Shown here piece by piece: positions 92 through 6,880 of a stretch of 39,096 nt of DNA. The notes beneath the pieces are model-generated. The model was not told the origin of the DNA. It did no database searches and saw only the letters and a program-made list of their open reading frames with translations. The stretch lies in IMG/VR virus record IMGVR_UViG_2851971941_000002. One strand, written 5' to 3'. This stretch comes from a virus. Lineage: Duplodnaviria; Heunggongvirae; Uroviricota; Caudoviricetes. How positions within the stretch are numbered: position 1 is the stretch's first letter; every line of letters starts with the position of its first letter. A program made the translations under genes and the position numbers.

Positions 92-385
92 TCACCCACG
101 ATTAACCAACAGCCAGACCAGCAGACACGCCACCACCGGCACAGCAAAATCCATCAGGCTTGCCACATCCCAAGCTCGCGGATCAAAACCGCCCCACCAC
201 GGCATATTCATTCGCTTGCCATGCCCGAACATTTCAATCCAGCGATATTCTGCCTGGGTATGTTCACGCGCAATGAAGAACGTACAACCGGCTATCGCTC
301 CGTAAGCCCAGTTTCCGGTAAAAAGACCAACCAGTATCTGCGCAGCCACAGCACAAAGTGCATGAAGTAAGGGGCTTATATCCAT
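92..385 (-). CDS. hypothetical small membrane protein (97 aa, about 3 hydrophobic segments)
   Basis: ORF track; AGGAGG Shine-Dalgarno (revcomp of 389-394) upstream of ATG at 385, overlapping the stop of the upstream ORF; hydrophobic stretches LLHALCAVAAQILVGLF and FAVPVVACLLVWLLV; last gene of the stf operon. Confidence 0.5.
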   Translation of the reverse strand: MDISPLLHALCAVAAQILVGLFTGNWAYGAIAGCTFFIAREHTQAEYRWIEMFGHGKRMNMPWWGGFDPRAWDVASLMDFAVPVVACLLVWLLVNRG

Positions 386-397
386 TATTTCCTCCTT

Positions 398-676
398 TCA
401 GCTCCATTCCCGAAGCGGTGTTTCCAGCTCCACGACATAATCAGAGAATACAGAAACATCAAACAAGTCATCAAGAATGCGAATGTTGACAAAATAACCA
501 TCATTCCGGATACAGACAGGTTCTCCCTCTTCTGTTACCCCTGTTTCTGTGTAGGTGAAACCAATTTCATCAACTAACAGTTTATTCTGGAGGTCTTCAT
601 CTTCCGCCCAGCCAAGAGATGACAGGAAGGCCTTAAACTGCAGTTTGTCATGAAACTTCAAAGTTAAATCTTTCAT
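398..676 (-). CDS. hypothetical small acidic protein (92 aa), translationally coupled to stf
   Basis: ORF track; its start overlaps the stf stop by 4 nt (ATGA); about 20 Asp/Glu versus about 8 Lys/Arg; no family recognised. Confidence 0.5.
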   Translation of the reverse strand: MKDLTLKFHDKLQFKAFLSSLGWAEDEDLQNKLLVDEIGFTYTETGVTEEGEPVCIRNDGYFVNIRILDDLFDVSVFSDYVVELETPLREWS

Positions 677-2733
677 ACGACCTCTTTTAATTGCCTGTCA
701 TTTAATTCTTTATGCCATATGCGGAAATTGCGAATATGGCCAAACAGATGTCGTTCTCCAGTATTCGTCTGCCCTCCAAATCGGATATTTTTATCAGCGG
801 TCACGCCATTATATTCACAATAAACTTCATTAACCGCTTTACCATTTGTCACCACATGAAAGTGACCATCAGCTTTTGCAATACATCCAAATGTGGTTTT
901 CTCTGCAAATACATCTGTCGCTGCGCTATTAACATACGAGCCTGAAGGGTTTGACAGACTCATATATAACTTACCACTACCTCTGTTGATTGCTGCAATT
1001 GCTGATTGCCCGGTATTGGCTGCTGCTATATCCCACACGCGGGGTGCGGCGTTTGGTGCAATATCCCAGTTTTTATGAATCTCAAGTAAAAAAGTAAATG
1101 GTAACTTATAAAGATTATTTCTGGTGGGGATACTAACCAAATCACTGGCTCTTGTCGTTGCGCTGCCTCCTGAAATAATAAATGATGATACACACGGCCC
1201 ATTCTCTACTTGTGGGGTGGCAAGATAAATATAGTCACCAGATACTGTTGCCCCACCCTGCCCAGGAGAATACTGTATCTGAGAGCCTATTTTTAACTCA
1301 CCATCAATTGCCTGAATCGTTGCCTCTGCAAAAATCCAGCCCGTGGTCTTATCCTTCCTGACTCGTGCCGTAATTCTGCCGGCAGCACCACCTGTCATAC
1401 TAATTTCAAGCGTTTGCGTATCAATGTACGCATCGCCAAGAAAAGTTGTTGCACTACCATCATACTTATCAAACCGTATACGTAACCTTACCTGTCGTTC
1501 TGTTTTAAAACGGCATGAGGTTGTCACGTACTTGTTATCGCCTGAGACATCAACTGACTTTGTTGCAGCAATTGATGCCATATTAATAGCCGAAGTTTGC
1601 CCAACCAGAGAATCGTTGCAGACAAACTTTCCATAAGTAAAACCAAAACTATCCGTCCCGGTTTCGGGCACATCCATGTTTGATGACTTCCCCCAGCTGG
1701 CTGGACTTTCCGAATTGAGCATGTAGTTCGTTCTTTGTCCCTCAATAAGCAGGCCATCACACTCAAATCGCGGCTCATTAATTTCCGCCGTTTTCAGTTC
1801 GCCAGATTTGTTGATATATGTTGCCGTTGATGCGCGACTGAAATTAACCTGTTTATCACTGGCGACCTGAACCACATCGTCACCAATAGCTATTTTTTTA
1901 TAGCCCGGAGAAAAACCCGCAATCATATCCAGTGAATCGTTAAACGGTATCCACACATCAGGCAGCGGCGGCACTATATTCGCACAGGGCTCTGCAGTCA
2001 CTTCCGCTGCGGCTTCTGCGCGGTCTGCCGCCTTTTCAGCTCGTGTCGCTGCCGACAGAGCCTCATCCTTTTTCTGCCCGGCCTTTGTTGCGTCTGCTGC
2101 GGCCTCCCGCGCTTTTGTGGTGGCGACTCCGGCATTTTCAGCGGCTGACTCTGCATTACGGCGGGAAGCCTCTTCACTGTCTGCGGAGGCTTCTTCTGAC
2201 GCACGGGCATTTGTCTCTGAACGTTCTGCCGCTGTTGCTGCGTTTTGTGCGGCTGTTTTTGAAGAAGCTGCCGCTTTCGCGCTGTTACCTGCATTCGTCT
2301 CTGATGTTTTCGCCGCGTTCCTGGACGATGCCGCTGCTGTTTCTGATTTCTTTGCTGCCGCTGCGCTCTGAGAGGCGGCTTCAGCGTTGCGTGCCGCCTC
2401 TTCCACCATCTTTTCAAAACGATACAGTGCCTCCGGACAAACATCATCTTCTGTTGCAGCGCCCAGAAAATCATTCAATGTCCCCGGCTTAGAATCCTCA
2501 TACACGGTGATGGTCCCGGCATGTGAAGGCGGAAAACCTTCAACCAGCAGGGCGACGCTGTACTGGCCATACTCAACATCCATGCTGTAACGTCCGGCTT
2601 CATCCGGATTTTCTGAGGCCACCGTGTTCACCACAACTGTGGTGCTGTTACGTTTTGCTTTCAGCTGGATTGTGCAGTTCTGTACCGGTTTTCCTGTGCC
2701 GTCTTTCAGTACACCTGAAATCTTTACTGCCAT
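673..2733 (-). CDS. stf: side tail fiber protein, lambda Stf-like N-terminus with a different C-terminal region
   Basis: N-terminus MAVKISGVLKDGTGKPVQNCTIQLKA...GFPPSHAGTITVYEDS matches lambda Stf as recalled; Ala/Ser-rich central region; C-terminal motif GHIRNFRIWHKELNDRQL resembles the end of ConA/LamG-like domains; ATG at 2733 chosen over the GTG at 2739 used by the ORF track. Confidence 0.85.
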   Translation of the reverse strand: MAVKISGVLKDGTGKPVQNCTIQLKAKRNSTTVVVNTVASENPDEAGRYSMDVEYGQYSVALLVEGFPPSHAGTITVYEDSKPGTLNDFLGAATEDDVCPEALYRFEKMVEEAARNAEAASQSAAAAKKSETAAASSRNAAKTSETNAGNSAKAAASSKTAAQNAATAAERSETNARASEEASADSEEASRRNAESAAENAGVATTKAREAAADATKAGQKKDEALSAATRAEKAADRAEAAAEVTAEPCANIVPPLPDVWIPFNDSLDMIAGFSPGYKKIAIGDDVVQVASDKQVNFSRASTATYINKSGELKTAEINEPRFECDGLLIEGQRTNYMLNSESPASWGKSSNMDVPETGTDSFGFTYGKFVCNDSLVGQTSAINMASIAATKSVDVSGDNKYVTTSCRFKTERQVRLRIRFDKYDGSATTFLGDAYIDTQTLEISMTGGAAGRITARVRKDKTTGWIFAEATIQAIDGELKIGSQIQYSPGQGGATVSGDYIYLATPQVENGPCVSSFIISGGSATTRASDLVSIPTRNNLYKLPFTFLLEIHKNWDIAPNAAPRVWDIAAANTGQSAIAAINRGSGKLYMSLSNPSGSYVNSAATDVFAEKTTFGCIAKADGHFHVVTNGKAVNEVYCEYNGVTADKNIRFGGQTNTGERHLFGHIRNFRIWHKELNDRQLKEVV

Positions 2734-2742
2734 ATTCACCCC

Positions 2743-2771
2743 ACAAAAAAGCCCGCCTGAACCGGCGGGCT
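2743..2771 (-). terminator. candidate rho-independent terminator between lom and stf
   Basis: On the minus strand, stem AGCCCGCCG / CGGCGGGCT followed by TTTTTTGTGGGG. Confidence 0.5.
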
Positions 2772-2797
2772 GTCATAACACTGTGTTACCTGGCTAA

Positions 2798-3397
2798 TCA
2801 GAACTTATAACCGACACCCACGATGAAACCGTCAGTGCGCCAGTCGCCACTGCCGGAGCCTTCATAAGCAATATCAATGGCCACGGATTCGGTCGGGTTA
2901 AACTGCACGCCAGCTCCCCACGCCAGAGACGTGTTGCTGTGGCGACCGTCATCACTTCCGGTCAGCACGTCGTGCGTTTTCCCCTTGTTGTCAGTTACGC
3001 GGAGATAATCCCCGGAGAAAGTCGACACACGGCTGTAAGCCATACCCGCCATCGCATACGCGCTGAACCATTCATTCACGCGCACAGACGGCCCCACCAT
3101 CACGCTGAACCAGCGGTTACGCACGGAATCTTCATGCCAGCGGGTATCGCTGTAACGGGTAAGCTGGCGATTCTTGTCTCCTGCATAGCTGAATGACGTC
3201 ACCAGCCCCAGTGTGTCCGTAAACTCATAACGGTATTTCACGTTAATCCCGTTAAGATCATCGCTGCCGGGAACGTTCGTCGAGGCATGAAGATACCCCG
3301 CGCTCAGCGTGGACTGATGTTCAGATGCCCATGCAGGCGCACCGGATACGGCCAGACAAATGGCTGCGGACAAAATGGCGGCATAAAGTTTACGCAT
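2798..3397 (-). CDS. lom: Lom-like outer membrane protein (Ail/Lom/PagC family)
   Basis: Signal peptide [40 protein letters not shown] and C-terminal [25 protein letters not shown] match lambda Lom as recalled; position between J and stf as in lambda. Confidence 0.9.
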
Positions 3398-3420
3398 AAT
3401 TACCTCTCGCTTTTCTGCAA

Positions 3421-3446
3421 TAAAAAAGGCACCATTTCTGGTGCCC
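3421..3446 (-). terminator. rho-independent terminator downstream of J
   Basis: On the minus strand, stem GGCACCA-GAAA-TGGTGCC followed by TTTTTTATT. Confidence 0.6.
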
Positions 3447-3466
3447 TTATATGGGTTATAACAATT

Positions 3467-6400
3467 TCAACGAATACTGATGCCGGAAGCGGCTTTTTTG
3501 GTCACAATCACCGTACAGTCGGTGATATTACCTGCCCACTGATTGCCTTTATGGAAAACCTTAAACTCCAGAGTGACGCTTCCCCTGCCACTCGGCATAT
3601 CAATAACCGCACTGTAGCTACCGGGAATGGCCCCTTTAGTTTCTCTGGATGCGATTAATACACCGTTTTTGCGAACTTCAAAACCATAACCCGTGTATCT
3701 TGTACCTCCCGGGTTATTACCACTTCCCGGATCGCTATACGCTATTCCGTTAAAGATAATGGGCGGAATAATGATTTGACGGTCAAAGTTATGATCATCG
3801 CTGATGGTGACTGTAACCGTCCCGTTTGGTGTTTCCGTGTTACCCCACGTACCAGCCTGTTTCGGAAATGATTTGGATACAGCTTTAACGAAGTCACCTC
3901 TGACCTGAGTCGCCTCCAGCATGCCCTTAATCGTACAGTTTTCATTTACCGTGACATTGTTGAGCGTCCCGGCGTTCGCATTCACACTGCCACTGATATC
4001 CGCATTTTTAGCGGTCAGCTTTCCGTCTGATGTCAGGGAAAATACCGGAGGACTGCCACCACTGGTAATGGTGGGGGCCGTCAGGCGCTTCAGGAACACG
4101 TCGTTCATGAATATCTGATTGCCCTGCGCCACAAACATCGGCGTTTCATTCCCGTTTGCCGGGTCAATAAATGCGATACGGTTAGCGGCAACCAGAAACT
4201 GACTCAGTTTGCCTTCCTCCGTGTCCTCCATGCTGAGGCCAATACCCGCGACATAATGTTTGCCGTCTTTGGTCTGCTCAATTTTGACGCCCCACATGGC
4301 ATTCCACTTATCGTTGGCGTCCTTCCACTCTTTCGAAAACTCCTCCAGTCTGCTGGCGTTATCCTCCGTCAGCTCGACTTTTTCCAGCAGCTCCTTGCCG
4401 AGATGGGATTCGGTTATCTTGCCTTTGAAAAAATCCAGGTAACCTTCCGCATCATCGCTCGCCCGACCGACGGCCTCCACGAATGCCGATTTGCCAACGG
4501 TGTTCACACTGCGGATATAAAAGTAATAATCATGGCCCGGTTTGATATTGATACTGGCGGCTATCCAGTACAGCGCCGTACCAAGATAGCGGGCTGTGGT
4601 TTCAACCTGCCTGATATCGGTAATCCGCTTTTCCGAGAACCAGAACTCAAACTGTACCGTCGGGTCATAAACGGCAAGATGCGGCGTGGCGGTTATCTGA
4701 AAATAGCCCGGCGTCAGCTCAATCCTCGACGGTGCTGCCGGTGCGGCAATCCGGAACGATACCGACGCCGGATCGCCCTGCTGCCCCCACGCATTTACCG
4801 CCCGGACTGTCAGCCTGTAGTTCCCCAGCGCCAGTTGCCTGAAGCGGTATGTGGTTTCCGTCGTCCGGGCCGTGCTGACCAGCCGCTCACTGCCGTCATC
4901 CGCTGTTACGGTCAGACGGAGCAGGAAGCTCACGCCCTTCACCACCTTCGGCGTGTCCCAGCGCGCCAGCACCTGATATTCCCCGCTGTCTGCGGTGACT
5001 TCGGCGGTCAGGTGCTGCACCGCTGGCGGCGTGACACCATTCACCGTGCCGCTCTGGTCGCCGTCAAAGTACGCCCCGTTATCCACGATGGCCTCTTTTT
5101 CCGGTACATGCTGCACGGCGGTGATGGCATACGTGCCGTCGTCGTTCTCACGGATACTCACGCAGCGGAACAGGCGCTGGCGCAGCGTCGGCAGCTTCAG
5201 CCCCCACACGCTGTATTCAGCAACACCGTCAGGAACACGGCTCACTTTCACCTTCACGCCGTCGGTGACGGACTGAACCTCCACGCTGATCGGATTGCCA
5301 CTTCCGTCAACCAGGCTTATCAGCGTGGTACCGGAGGATGGCAGCGTGATTTCACGGTCGAGCGTCAGCGTCCGGGTCTGGCTGTTTACCGCCAGCACGC
5401 GCCCGCCGATGCTGATACCGGCATAGTCATCATCACAGATTTCAATGACATCGCCCGGCACATGGCGAAGCCCTTCTGCGCCCACGCAGAAGTCCACGGT
5501 CTGCGTTTCCAGCAGTTCTGTTTTAATCAGCCACAGCCCGGCGCGGTGTGCCTGCCCCCGGCTGGTACAGCCAAAAGCATCCATCTTCGTGACGTTACGA
5601 CCGTAACGGGCAATGGCCTGCGTATCCTCCACAAGCTCTGTCGCCGTCTCCCAGCCGTTGTTCGGGTCAATCCAGTTCACCTCAACGGCATTATGGCGGT
5701 CTTTCAGGGCGCTGAAACTGTAGCGGAACGGCGCGCCATCATCCGGCATCACCACATTACTGCGGTTATAGGTCCACACCTTATCCGACGGTCGGTCCTG
5801 CACGAACGTCAGCGTCTGCCCGTTCCATACCGGCATACAGCGCATCGCCGAGCAGAAATCACTGAGCACATCCCACGCCTTGCGCTGTGTGGTCAGGTAC
5901 GCATTACAGGTGATGCGCGGCTCCGTGCCGCCAAAGCCGTCCGGCACTGACTGGTCGCAGTACTGGCCGATGACATACAGCGCCCATTTGTCCACATCCG
6001 CCGCACCAAGACGTTTCCCCATGCCGTAGCGTGGATGGGTCAGCATATCCCACAGACACCAGGCCATGTTATTGCTGTATGCTGGCTTAAACGTTCCGTC
6101 CCAGATACCGCTGTATTGCCGCGTCTGCGGGTTATAGTTCGACGGCACCTGCAGAATACGCCCGCGCAGATGATAATTACGGCTCACCTGCTGGCTGCCG
6201 AACTGCTCCGAATCCACCTGTACGCCGACCAGTGCCGTGTTCGGGTAGCACTGTTTCACATCGATGATTTCGGTGTATGACGACCAGAGCGTTTTGTTCT
6301 GCAGCTGGTCTGTGGTGCTGTCCGGCGTCATCCTGCGCATCCGGATATTGAACGGGCGCGGCGGCAGGTTACCCACCACCACCGAGGCCAGATACTGTGA

Positions 6401-6880
6401 GGTGGTTTTGCCTTTAATGGTGATGTCTTTTTCCGTCACCCAGCCACCGTTACGCTGTATCTGAACCAGCAGGCGGACTTCCGACGGATTCCGGTCCCCC
6501 TTTGAGGTGGTTTCCACCAGTGCCTGCACACCGAAGGTAAAGCGCAGACGGTCGATGTTTGCAGACGTGATGGTCCGGGTAATCGGCGTGTCGTACTTCA
6601 CTTCCGTACCCAGCACCGTCTCGGAGCCGGAGGATTCAAATCCCTCCGGCGGTGTCTGCTCCTGCTCACCTGCCCGGAAAACCACCGTGACACCGGAGAT
6701 ATTGGTATTCCCCTCACTGTCCAGCACTGGCGTACTGTTCAGCAGCACACTTTTTAATCCGTCCACCGGACCTTCAATCGGCCCTTCACTGATGGCGTCT
6801 ATCACGCTCAGCATCTGGGATGATTTCAGGTTGTCCTTCGCTTCGCGCGGGGTATGCCCCTTACTGCTGCCTTTACCCAT
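3467..6880 (-). CDS. J: tail tip / host specificity protein J
   Basis: 1137 aa; N-terminus [41 protein letters not shown] matches lambda J as recalled; lambda gene order. Confidence 0.95.

What the first reader, a model, noticed from the sequence alone, without database searches (positions are those of the whole stretch)
92..385. Small polytopic membrane protein as terminal gene of the tail-fiber operon
A 97-aa protein with about three hydrophobic segments has a strong AGGAGG ribosome-binding site overlapping the preceding stop. A membrane protein at the end of a tail fiber operon is unexpected for virion assembly; prophages often place superinfection-exclusion or lysogenic-conversion membrane proteins at this location. 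That role is speculative.
Basis: inference. Interest (0 to 1): 0.5.

Follow-up and report, generated by a model that had tools for sequence, protein, structure and literature searches.

The report
Conserved membrane protein beside tail-fibre genes
This is a real, strongly conserved 97-residue inner-membrane protein of unknown function that many unrelated phages carry right next to their host-recognition (tail fibre or tailspike) genes and that some bacteria carry on their chromosomes; it is not needed to build the fibre, and published data show it is not switched on in the dormant prophage, so the proposed lysogen-protecting role remains unproven.

Summary
The ORF (window 92-385, minus strand, 97 aa) is real. 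It has an AGGAGG ribosome-binding site and dN/dS of 0.15-0.3. A confident model (pLDDT 94.8) shows three membrane helices, and 22 residues are invariant. The window matches prophage Perceval of E. coli LF82, where the gene is the last in the J-lom-fibre-92aa string and faces the convergent sitABCD operon.

The family (PHROG 1443, 'Ybl63') matches no Pfam, NCBIfam or PADLOC model and no solved fold. It occurs in 35% of complete E. coli genomes.

In phages it sits beside receptor-binding-protein genes whatever the tail type: lambda-, SSU5-, P22-, P2-, HP1- and P1-like, and multi-tailspike phages. Its sequence does not track the fibre type, and virulent phages with the same fibre plus 92-aa partner lack it. 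It is therefore accessory and not an assembly factor.

It is also a syntenic chromosomal gene in Aeromonas, and it lies beside housekeeping genes in sphingomonads.

Published LF82 RNA-seq puts all three prophage copies at background in the LB lysogen. Where the gene is transcribed, it follows the gene upstream of it.

Verdict: observation confirmed; 'non-structural accessory membrane protein' supported; 'lysogenic conversion/exclusion' untested and weakened. Best guess (about 0.3): an exclusion-type or envelope-acting protein made late in infection.

The parts
92..385 (-). CDS of the 97-aa three-helix membrane protein (PHROG 1443; UniProt name 'Ybl63'; PERCE_24 / LF82_183; CPT_21_24 in phage 21)
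   Evidence: ORF; phrog_1443 E=2.4e-58 over the full length; 100% identical in Perceval and phage 21; AF2 pLDDT 94.8 with helices 4-23, 26-53, 74-96; dN/dS 0.15-0.31
391..396 (-). Shine-Dalgarno AGGAGG, 5-nt spacer to the ATG at 385-383
   Evidence: Sequence; annotated as the RBS in the phage 21 record
398..676 (-). Upstream 92-aa gene: partner or chaperone-like protein of Laminin_G_3-type side fibres. It is context and not part of the same functional unit
   Evidence: phrog_1361; start overlaps the fibre stop; homologous to the 94/95-aa proteins that follow each Laminin_G_3 fibre in a P1-like element; present in 147 phage records including virulent phages that lack the 97-aa gene, once annotated as a lateral tail fiber chaperone
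673..2739 (-). Side tail fibre gene (688 aa): prophage tail fibre N-terminal domain plus a ConA-like/Laminin_G_3 C-terminal domain
   Evidence: PF08400 E=6e-68, PF13385, phrog_1419
2750..2771 (-). Terminator-like hairpin between lom and the fibre gene; the fibre-92aa-97aa block lies downstream of it
   Evidence: annotated as a terminator in phage 21
1..91 (.). Spacer between the gene's stop codon and the convergent sitD gene (just beyond the window edge); no convincing intrinsic terminator on the gene's strand
   Evidence: sitD position; fold z=-1.7 with no U-run; no terminator-like site found

Best explanation
The gene encodes a non-structural, accessory inner-membrane protein that travels with receptor-binding-protein (RBP) gene cassettes.

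Shown: it is a real protein under purifying selection. It forms three membrane helices with an invariant Arg/Trp-rich connecting segment (AREHTQAEYRWI..G.G.R.NMPWWGGFD.R.W) and conserved polar residues inside the helices (D2, H8, Q16, C34, D79). It lies next to fibre or spike genes in phages of all three tail morphologies. The fibre beside it does not require it. Its transcription follows that of the gene upstream of it, and it is not autonomously expressed in the LB-grown lysogen.

Inferred: in this lambdoid prophage it is made together with the fibre from the Q-antiterminated late transcript. It inserts N-in/C-out, so that the conserved segment and a buried His-Glu-Asp/Arg cluster face the cytoplasmic side.

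Proposed mechanism: there it binds a conserved host inner-membrane component, either an entry or transport protein or a lipid-linked envelope precursor. This makes the producing cell refractory to further phage DNA entry, or alters what the cell displays on its surface. That would be an exclusion-type or envelope-acting function exerted mainly during lytic growth and not constitutively in the lysogen. It has no role in the virion.
For: Real and constrained.

Membrane fold.

Topology: K+R average 5.5 in the central loop against about 0.6 on the opposite side. Family members with N-terminal extensions have an extra TM followed by RWRIR, or a basic soluble extension.

RBP linkage across architectures: lambdoid, SSU5-like phage-plasmid, P22-like between tailspike and int, phiHAP-1 after the fibre-assembly gene (26), HP1/P2-like with the start overlapping the fibre stop, E. 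coli P2-like, P1-like, between two tailspikes, after J plus a spike, Comamonas J-type (12), Cobetia phage Carin-5 spike cluster (52), and an alphaproteobacterial Laminin_G_3 fibre with a 4-nt overlap.

Accessory, not for assembly: the fibre plus 92-aa module is in 147 phage records and the 97-aa gene in 75, and it is absent from the virulent T1-/T5-like carriers. The protein is 79-96% identical between E. coli phages with different RBPs. A mosaic joint lies at its 5' end and GC3 steps there.

Self-sufficient function: syntenic, purifying-selected chromosomal copies in Aeromonas and copies beside pnp, ligA and amn in sphingomonad genomes.

Precedent (my own knowledge): Cor, Llp, HK97 gp15 and the gtr/oac genes are exclusion or conversion genes placed beside tail or RBP genes.

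Enrichment in temperate elements: 1,902 of 5,426 complete E. coli genomes, median two copies.
Against: No phenotype has ever been tested. There is no similarity to any annotated exclusion or defence family (PHROGs, PADLOC) and no informative fold match. All three LF82 copies are at prophage background in LB, and the Tritos copy is silent in every condition. Under the inferred topology the protein has almost no periplasmic exposure, so it cannot meet an incoming tail directly. Conservation across Alpha-, Beta-, Gamma- and Deltaproteobacteria, with cellular copies beside housekeeping genes, is unusual for exclusion proteins and fits a biochemical or housekeeping role at least as well. The topology is not settled: the Aeromonas copies have a basic C-terminal tail, and the phage 21 record reports TMHMM with 2 TMDs, N-in/C-in, and a SignalP signal peptide.
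Confidence: 0.3

Rival explanations
1. A cellular small membrane protein with a housekeeping-type job (membrane or envelope-lipid homeostasis, or a small enzyme or ion-binding unit built around the H8/E41/D79/Cys cluster) that phages have borrowed as an auxiliary gene. Its benefit to the phage would be to keep the inner membrane or envelope synthesis in a favourable state during late infection, and it would not block other phages.
For: Stable syntenic chromosomal locus in at least four Aeromonas species with dN/dS 0.15-0.19. Copies beside PNPase, LigA, AMP nucleosidase, HerA and a MetE-like gene with no phage genes nearby. Very high conservation with 22 invariant residues, including buried polar ones. 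The E. coli P2-like phage copy is the one closest to the Aeromonas chromosomal copy (65%).
Against: No match to any enzyme or transporter family or fold. It does not explain why phages place the gene specifically beside RBP genes. The family is small (450 representatives at 50% identity) and patchy for a housekeeping function.
Confidence: 0.2
2. One reading: a constitutively prophage-expressed moron that gives the lysogen superinfection exclusion or lysogenic conversion.
For: The position corresponds to known conversion or exclusion slots: between tailspike and int in P22-like Gally, and between the fibre genes and the sheath gene in P2-like prophages (that P2 carries Z/fun there is my own knowledge). 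In Gally a terminator hairpin and a weak promoter-like site precede the gene. GC3 differs from the neighbouring fibre genes. The gene is enriched in temperate elements.
Against: Published RNA-seq: PERCE_24 at 1.6x background, GALLYPH_17 at 1.2x, TRITO_22 at the floor; none was called a moron. In most phages the gene is tightly packed with, or overlaps, the upstream late gene. No promoter or terminator is found in the window. The gene is also present in large phages inside spike clusters.
Confidence: 0.1
3. A lysis-timing accessory (holin-, antiholin- or pinholin-like membrane protein) co-expressed with the late genes.
For: It is a small late membrane protein. In a Comamonas prophage it directly precedes two small membrane proteins, a transglycosylase-like protein and a nested Rz/Rz1-like pair. 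In a Leclercia P1-like element it occupies the exact position of P1/P7 lydC, immediately upstream of lydA-lydB.
Against: LydC and LydA do not match the family profile. The protein ends right after helix 3, without the charged C-terminal tail typical of holins. Perceval and phage 21 have complete lysis cassettes elsewhere. The chromosomal copies and the strongly conserved structured loop are not holin-like.
Confidence: 0.1
4. A membrane-associated factor for RBP maturation or assembly, or an RBP-specific partner.
For: The gene is immediately adjacent to RBP genes and is often translationally coupled to them: its start overlaps the fibre stop in A. salmonicida and Chelativorans and abuts it in Leclercia.
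Against: The same fibre type with its 92-aa partner exists without it in many virulent phages. The protein is 96% identical next to unrelated terminal fibres and 79% identical next to a tailspike. The adjacent RBPs have unrelated folds: Laminin_G_3, pectate lyase, Phage_tail_fib/S74 and J. Cellular orthologues have no phage partner at all.
Confidence: 0.07
5. Its main evolutionary role in phages is at the DNA level: a conserved sequence at the right-hand border of RBP cassettes that acts as a homologous-recombination anchor for swapping fibres or spikes. The protein's function would be secondary. This does not exclude the other readings.
For: Nucleotide similarity between otherwise different phages begins at the 5' end of this gene. 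GC3 steps at the joint. The idea of conserved flanks as RBP recombination hotspots is proposed in PMC10408124.
Against: Strong purifying selection on the protein while synonymous sites are saturated. Chromosomal orthologues are under the same constraint. Invariant residues are spread across distant taxa.
Confidence: 0.08

Closest known systems
Cor (phi80/N15/HK022-type) and Llp (T5): receptor-blocking exclusion proteins encoded beside tail or RBP genes (my own knowledge)
   Same: A small, non-structural envelope protein placed next to the host-recognition genes.
   Different: Cor and Llp are outer-membrane lipoproteins matched to one receptor (FhuA). This protein has no lipobox or basic n-region, is a three-helix inner-membrane protein, and stays nearly the same next to unrelated RBPs. 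No sequence relationship was found.
Inner-membrane superinfection-exclusion proteins: T4 Imm, HK97 gp15, P22 SieA (SieA: PMC10883804; the rest from my own knowledge)
   Same: Small phage-encoded inner-membrane proteins; gp15 also sits inside the tail gene region.
   Different: No hit to any annotated PHROG or PADLOC family. gp15 and SieA are expressed from the prophage, whereas this gene is at background in LB lysogens. This family is far more conserved and has cellular orthologues.
P1/P7 LydC and LydA (holins; PMC9025707)
   Same: Similar size (93-109 aa), membrane proteins. In a Leclercia P1-like element the family member occupies the lydC position, upstream of lydA-lydB.
   Different: No detectable homology. 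Three helices versus two. No basic C-terminal tail. Found mostly far from lysis cassettes.
gtrABC / oac O-antigen conversion cassettes next to the tailspike gene in P22-like phages (my own knowledge; gtr is mentioned in PMC10883804)
   Same: In P22-like Gally the gene lies in the same slot, between tailspike and integrase; it is a membrane protein.
   Different: No GtrA, GtrB or acyltransferase domain. It is a single small gene, not transcribed above background in the Gally lysogen, and not serotype-specific in its distribution.
Tail-fibre assembly or partner proteins (lambda Tfa, P2 G, and the 92-aa phrog_1361 family encoded just upstream)
   Same: A small gene directly following a fibre gene, sometimes with overlapping start and stop codons.
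   Different: Those are soluble and co-occur strictly with their fibre type. This one is an integral membrane protein, occurs once per cluster, and is independent of fibre type.

Membership tests
PHROG 1443 / UniProt 'Ybl63' (uncharacterised phage protein family) | Full-length profile match | tested here: met
   phrog_1443 E=2.4e-58, residues 1-96 of 97; the exact sequence carries the name Ybl63 in UniRef. The family has no assigned function.
Moron (autonomously expressed prophage gene) | Transcribed in the lysogen well above the prophage background | tested here: not met
   Published LF82 tables read here: PERCE_24 at 11.5 against a median of 7.1 (cutoff 35.6); GALLYPH_17 at 18.3 against 15.6; TRITO_22 at the floor. 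Only LB stationary phase, cell-culture medium and macrophage conditions were sampled.
Moron (autonomously expressed prophage gene) | Own promoter and terminator flanking the gene | tested here: inconclusive
   Window: no promoter-like site between the fibre gene and the ORF, and no terminator after it. Gally: a terminator hairpin plus a weak promoter-like site upstream, but promoter-like sites there are no more frequent than in shuffled sequence.
Moron (autonomously expressed prophage gene) | Composition or mosaic discontinuity relative to its neighbours | tested here: met
   GC3 is 0.51, against 0.41-0.42 for the fibre and 92-aa genes and 0.62-0.67 for lom and J; inter-phage similarity starts at the gene's 5' end.
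Superinfection-exclusion membrane proteins (Imm, SieA, gp15 types) | Sequence or profile similarity to a characterised exclusion family | tested here: not met
   Only unknown-function PHROGs are hit; 0 PADLOC hits for five family members; no Pfam or NCBIfam match.
Superinfection-exclusion membrane proteins (Imm, SieA, gp15 types) | Inner-membrane location | tested here: met
   Three hydrophobic helices, high-confidence model, positive-inside bias. This is a prediction only.
Superinfection-exclusion membrane proteins (Imm, SieA, gp15 types) | Expression blocks infection by the same or other phages | not testable with these tools
   Needs plasmid expression or deletion lysogens and a phage panel.
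Holins / antiholins | Homology to a known holin family (tested against P7 LydC/LydA and D6 LydA) | tested here: not met
   The family HMM gives no score for LydC and only noise (<2 bits) for LydA, while LydC and LydA match each other.
Holins / antiholins | Charged hydrophilic C-terminal tail and a position inside the lysis cassette | tested here: not met
   The protein ends 'NRG' right after helix 3. In the window it lies at the far end of the late operon from the lysis genes. It is adjacent to lysis genes only in Comamonas and P1-like elements.
Tail-fibre chaperone or structural tail protein | Similarity to known structural or assembly families, and obligate co-occurrence with the fibre | tested here: not met
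   No such hits. The fibre plus 92-aa module is frequent without it. Its sequence is independent of RBP type.
Receptor-blocking lipoproteins (Cor, Llp) | Lipoprotein signal peptide with a lipobox cysteine | tested here: not met
   The N-terminus, MDISPLLHALCAV, has no basic n-region and no L-[AS]-[GA]-C box. C11 is not conserved, whereas D2, H8 and Q16 in this segment are invariant.

The most novel reading that the evidence does not exclude
A universal small effector that faces the cytoplasm. Phages of all three tail morphologies would place it beside their receptor-binding-protein genes, and some bacteria would keep it as a chromosomal gene. It would act on a step of envelope biogenesis or entry shared across Proteobacteria, for example synthesis of undecaprenyl-phosphate-linked glycans or a conserved inner-membrane transporter. 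This would couple 'which receptor I recognise' to 'what the producing cell displays or lets in'. It would be a new, receptor-independent class of phage-host interface protein.
Probability: 0.1. Interest if true: 0.8.

Novelty: new variant of a known kind. Interest (0 to 1): 0.45.

Why it matters
The gene is one of the commonest uncharacterised prophage genes in E. coli: 35% of complete genomes carry it, usually in two or more copies. Yet it has no Pfam, NCBIfam or defence-database entry and no literature. It sits at the border of the receptor-binding cassettes that are swapped in nature and in engineered therapeutic phages, so it is often carried along, or lost, without anyone knowing what it does. 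Its linkage to host-recognition genes across tail morphologies, its extreme conservation and the existence of cellular orthologues together point to a specific, testable molecular function. If that function is exclusion or envelope remodelling, it would affect phage susceptibility in a third of E. coli strains. The experiments needed are simple: plasmid expression, a clean deletion, topology reporters and point mutants of the invariant residues.

Tried and rejected
1. Family assignment by profile. Pfam, NCBIfam and PADLOC gave nothing. PHROGs gave only unknown-function families. A permissive Pfam scan of all 48 aligned members gave only a weak, generic PhoR-TM match in 8 members.

3. Holin hypothesis through the positional equivalence with P1/P7 lydC: rejected, no homology.

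4. Two-gene module with the upstream small protein: rejected. The 92-aa protein belongs to the Laminin_G_3 fibres, and the 72-aa and 75-aa upstream proteins in other phages are unrelated to it.

5. Fused domains in longer family members: none. There are only N- or C-terminal extra helices, or a ~45-aa charged loop insertion.

6. The 'Prolipoprotein diacylglyceryl transferase' label on an Aeromonas member: not supported, since LGT is not hit by any member.

7. Tai tail-assembly-interference systems and the P2/P4 defence hotspots in the literature concern different loci and different proteins.

8. Literature searches for the family identifiers (phrog_1443, FIG00639861, CPT_21_24, Ybl63) found nothing relevant.

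9. Readthrough from the sit operon as the source of the macrophage signal: unlikely, because PERCE_24 does not track sitD across conditions.

Full report
**1. The observation**

The Shine-Dalgarno AGGAGG is at 391-396, five bases before the ATG. The preceding 92-aa gene ends with TGA at 398-400, so the core ribosome-binding site is one base from that stop and does not overlap it. The phage 21 GenBank record annotates the same site.

Hydropathy shows a hydrophobic stretch at residues 4-39, a polar loop at 40-73 that holds essentially all the charges, and a very hydrophobic C-terminal helix at 75-95. AlphaFold2 on a 48-sequence alignment gives a confident model (mean pLDDT 94.8, pTM 0.79). It has three helices, 4-23, 26-53 and 74-96, and an ordered connecting segment.

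**2. Where the window comes from**

The first 700 bases are 100% identical to Escherichia phage Perceval and 99% identical to phage 21. Perceval is one of the five prophages of adherent-invasive E. coli LF82 (PMC9928086).

On the gene's strand the order is J, terminator, lom, terminator, a 688-aa side tail fibre (PF08400 N-terminal domain plus a ConA-like/Laminin_G_3 C-terminal domain), the 92-aa gene, then this gene. In Perceval and phage 21 the next gene is the convergent sitD of the sitABCD operon, which ends just beyond window position 1. So the gene is the last of the fibre string here. I found no convincing terminator behind it.

**3. It is a real, constrained gene**

The word-indexed search found 577 homologue clusters. 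The exhaustive profile search found 450 representatives at 50% identity, all about 100 aa and single-domain.

Twenty-two residues are invariant in a diverse alignment: D2, H8, Q16, G29, R40, E41, Q44, A45, E46, Y47, R48, W49, G56, R58, M61, P62, G65, G66, F67, W72, D79 and P83. Sixteen more are at least 90% conserved, including C34 and C87.

Pairwise dN/dS is 0.15-0.31 wherever synonymous sites are not saturated. Between phage types the synonymous sites are saturated, yet the proteins remain at least 57% identical.

The gene's DNA is present in 1,902 of 5,426 complete E. coli genomes. The median is two copies and the maximum is seven, and every copy is annotated 'hypothetical protein'.

**4. 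What it is not**

- No Pfam, NCBIfam or PADLOC model matches. The only PHROG hits are phrog_1443 (full length) and phrog_34165 (a C-terminal fragment), both of unknown function.
- The only names any source gives are 'Ybl63' and 'putative membrane protein' (phage 21), plus one Aeromonas entry called 'Prolipoprotein diacylglyceryl transferase'. No family member hits the LGT model, so I regard that last label as an error.
- No paper mentions the family identifiers. The phage 21 genome announcement, whose authors used HHpred, says nothing about function.

**5. Genomic association**

This is the most informative evidence. In phages and prophages the gene lies beside receptor-binding-protein (RBP) genes, whatever the tail architecture:

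- Lambdoid Perceval, phage 21 and Tritos.
- An SSU5-like phage-plasmid.
- P22-like Gally, between tailspike and integrase.
- Halomonas phiHAP-1, after the fibre-assembly gene and before the sheath gene.
- HP1/P2-like prophages of Leclercia and Aeromonas salmonicida, where its start abuts or overlaps the fibre stop.
- E. coli P2-like prophages, between the fibre H gene plus a 75-aa gene and an invertase plus the sheath gene.
- A Leclercia P1-like element, after two fibre-and-partner pairs and before lydA/lydB.
- A 160-kb Salmonella contig, between two pectate-lyase tailspikes.
- A Citrobacter prophage, after J and a tailspike.
- A Comamonas prophage, after a 2,520-aa J-like protein.
- Cobetia phage Carin-5, inside a spike and fibre cluster.

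A census of loci from one genome per species adds a Laminin_G_3 fibre in the alphaproteobacterium Chelativorans (4-nt overlap), pectate-lyase spikes and fibre-partner genes. Exceptions exist: a partial homologue in jumbo Aeromonas phages lies next to a helicase/terminase-like gene.

**6. The linkage is not a physical partnership with a particular RBP**

The upstream 92-aa protein is a separate matter. It is homologous (E about 1e-17) to the 94/95-aa proteins that follow each Laminin_G_3 fibre in the P1-like element. It occurs in 147 phage records, and most of those are virulent T1-like, T5-like or Dhillonvirus phages. One record annotates it as a lateral tail fibre chaperone.

The 97-aa protein is found in only 75 records and not in those virulent phages. 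So this fibre type does not need it.

The protein is 96% identical next to an unrelated terminal fibre, 84% in the SSU5-like element and 79% next to a tailspike. The two copies that follow homologous HP1-type fibres are only 57% identical to each other.

Nucleotide similarity between phages starts at the 5' end of the gene. GC3 steps from 0.41-0.42 (fibre and 92-aa genes) to 0.51. Both indicate a mosaic joint there.

**7. A cellular branch**

- In Aeromonas rivipollensis, A. aquatica, A. media and A. taiwanensis the gene sits at one syntenic chromosomal locus (pirin, the gene, RIO1 kinase, two LpxL-like acyltransferases). No phage genes lie within 8 kb, and dN/dS is 0.15-0.19.
- In sphingomonad-type genomes it lies beside PNPase, NAD-dependent DNA ligase, AMP nucleosidase or HerA. 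In one Leclercia lineage it lies beside a MetE-like gene.

Whatever the protein does, it can do it without phage partners.

**8. Topology (inferred)**

The central loop averages 5.5 Lys+Arg, against 0.23 at the N-terminus, 0.02 in the helix 1-2 turn and 0.56 at the C-terminus. Family members with N-terminal extensions carry either an extra transmembrane helix followed by RWRIR, or a basic soluble extension. With three helices this points to N-in/C-out. The invariant loop and a polar cluster (D2/H8, R40/E41/H42, D79) would then lie at the cytoplasmic face, and almost nothing would be exposed to the periplasm.

Two caveats apply. The Aeromonas copies have a basic C-terminal tail. The phage 21 record reports TMHMM with two TMDs, N-in/C-in, and a SignalP signal peptide. 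The invariant polar residues within the first helix argue against a cleaved signal peptide.

**9. Expression (published data, read here)**

Misson et al. [quoted passage not shown]

- PERCE_24, which is this exact gene, has a normalised count of 11.5 against a Perceval median of 7.1 and a cutoff of 35.6. That is the same level as J, lom, the fibre gene and the 92-aa gene.
- The Gally copy has 18.3 against a median of 15.6. The authors state that Gally has no morons.
- The Tritos copy is at the detection floor in all five conditions.
- Inside macrophages the Perceval fibre, 92-aa and 97-aa genes rise about 8- to 30-fold, while terminase through J stay at the floor. The signal does not follow sitD, so it is not convergent readthrough.
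- In Tritos the fibre genes rise but the family gene does not.

The simplest reading is that the gene is transcribed when the gene upstream of it is, and has no lysogen-specific expression of its own.

The transcription signals agree. The window has no promoter-like site between the fibre gene and the ORF. In Gally a terminator hairpin and a weak promoter-like site precede the gene, but promoter-like sites there are no more frequent than in shuffled sequence.

**10. Tests of specific rivals**

Holin. In P1/P7 the 93/94-aa holin LydC lies exactly where the family member lies in the Leclercia P1-like element. However, LydC and LydA do not match the family profile, while they do match each other. 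The protein also lacks a charged C-terminal tail. In Comamonas the gene is followed by what looks like a lysis cassette, but this is not general.

Recombination anchor. The mosaic joint fits the proposal in PMC10408124 that conserved RBP flanks promote cassette exchange. Selection, however, clearly acts on the protein.

**11. Interpretation**

The 'prophage-expressed exclusion or lysogenic conversion' part is weakened by the transcriptome data and by the tight coupling to late genes. It cannot be excluded, because only a few conditions were sampled and no phenotype has been tested.

My best-supported reading (about 0.3) is an accessory inner-membrane protein made with the RBPs late in infection. 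It would act within the inner membrane or at its cytoplasmic face on a conserved host component, with an exclusion-type or envelope-modifying outcome.

A borrowed cellular housekeeping function (about 0.2) is the strongest rival, because of the chromosomal orthologues and the enzyme-like conservation. Lysis-timing, RBP-maturation, constitutive-moron and DNA-level anchor readings each get 0.1 or less. The remaining probability is 'something not yet thought of'.

**12. Novelty and score**

The gene itself is already catalogued as hypothetical, and small accessory phage membrane proteins next to tail genes are a known kind. What appears to be undescribed is:

- this family's linkage to RBP genes across all tail morphologies, irrespective of RBP fold;
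- its extreme conservation;
- its cellular branch;
- its prevalence in E. coli.

That makes it a good, cheap experimental target, but not a demonstrated new mechanism. I score interest at 0.45.

Noticed in passing
window 398-676 (-): The 92-aa gene upstream belongs to a fibre-partner family (phrog_1361). Its start overlaps the fibre gene's stop. Homologues follow every Laminin_G_3-type fibre (two tandem pairs in a Leclercia P1-like element) and occur in 147 phage records, including virulent T1-like, T5-like and Dhillonvirus phages, where one is annotated as a 'lateral tail fiber chaperone'.
   Followed up: partly
window 673-2739 (-) and locus L159 764-4467 (Tritos): In the published LF82 RNA-seq tables (PMC9928086), the side-tail-fibre genes of both lambdoid prophages (PERCE_22-24, TRITO_19-21) rise strongly inside macrophages while terminase through J stay at the detection floor. 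This implies late-operon-independent transcription of the fibre genes. Two weak promoter-like sites lie inside the fibre gene on its strand (window 2001-1973 and 1424-1397).
   Followed up: partly
window 92-6880 (-): Stepwise codon-position-3 GC along the operon: J 0.67, lom 0.62, fibre 0.41, 92-aa 0.42, 97-aa 0.51. Inter-phage nucleotide similarity begins at the 5' end of the 97-aa gene. Both indicate mosaic joints on each side of the fibre cassette.
   Followed up: partly
window 3425-3448 and 2750-2771 (-): Terminator-like hairpins follow J and lom, so lom is bracketed by terminators and the fibre block lies downstream of the second one.
   Followed up: no
window 1 and beyond (locus L002 2551-6000): The window starts just after the stop of sitD. 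In Perceval and phage 21 the sitABCD iron/manganese transporter operon converges on the 97-aa gene; the LF82 study reports it as an expressed moron.
   Followed up: partly
L003 8300-10033 (Comamonas testosteroni prophage): The family gene is followed by two small membrane proteins (125 and 99 aa), a 183-aa transglycosylase-like protein and a nested Rz/Rz1-like pair. This looks like a lysis cassette placed directly after the tail genes.
   Followed up: partly
L148-L151 7391-7957 (E. coli P2-like prophages): A resolvase/invertase gene sits immediately after the family gene, between the fibre gene and the sheath gene. No inverted alternative fibre segment was evident in the gene calls.
   Followed up: no
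L145/L146 2437-8164 (Leclercia P1-like element): This P1-like element lacks cin, the invertible C segment and lydC. In their place it has two tandem Laminin_G_3 fibre-plus-partner pairs and then the family gene, directly before lydA-lydB-darA.
   Followed up: partly
proteins P0147, P0184, P0246: A subgroup of the family carries a ~45-residue charged, Tyr/Trp-rich insertion in the conserved loop, between 'RWIE.FG' and 'NMPWWGGFD'. Other members have an extra N- or C-terminal helix.
   Followed up: no
protein P0304 (Aeromonas, cluster of P0094): A 102-aa Aeromonas family member is named 'Prolipoprotein diacylglyceryl transferase' in UniRef. No member of the family matches the LGT profile, so the name appears to be an annotation error.
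   Followed up: yes
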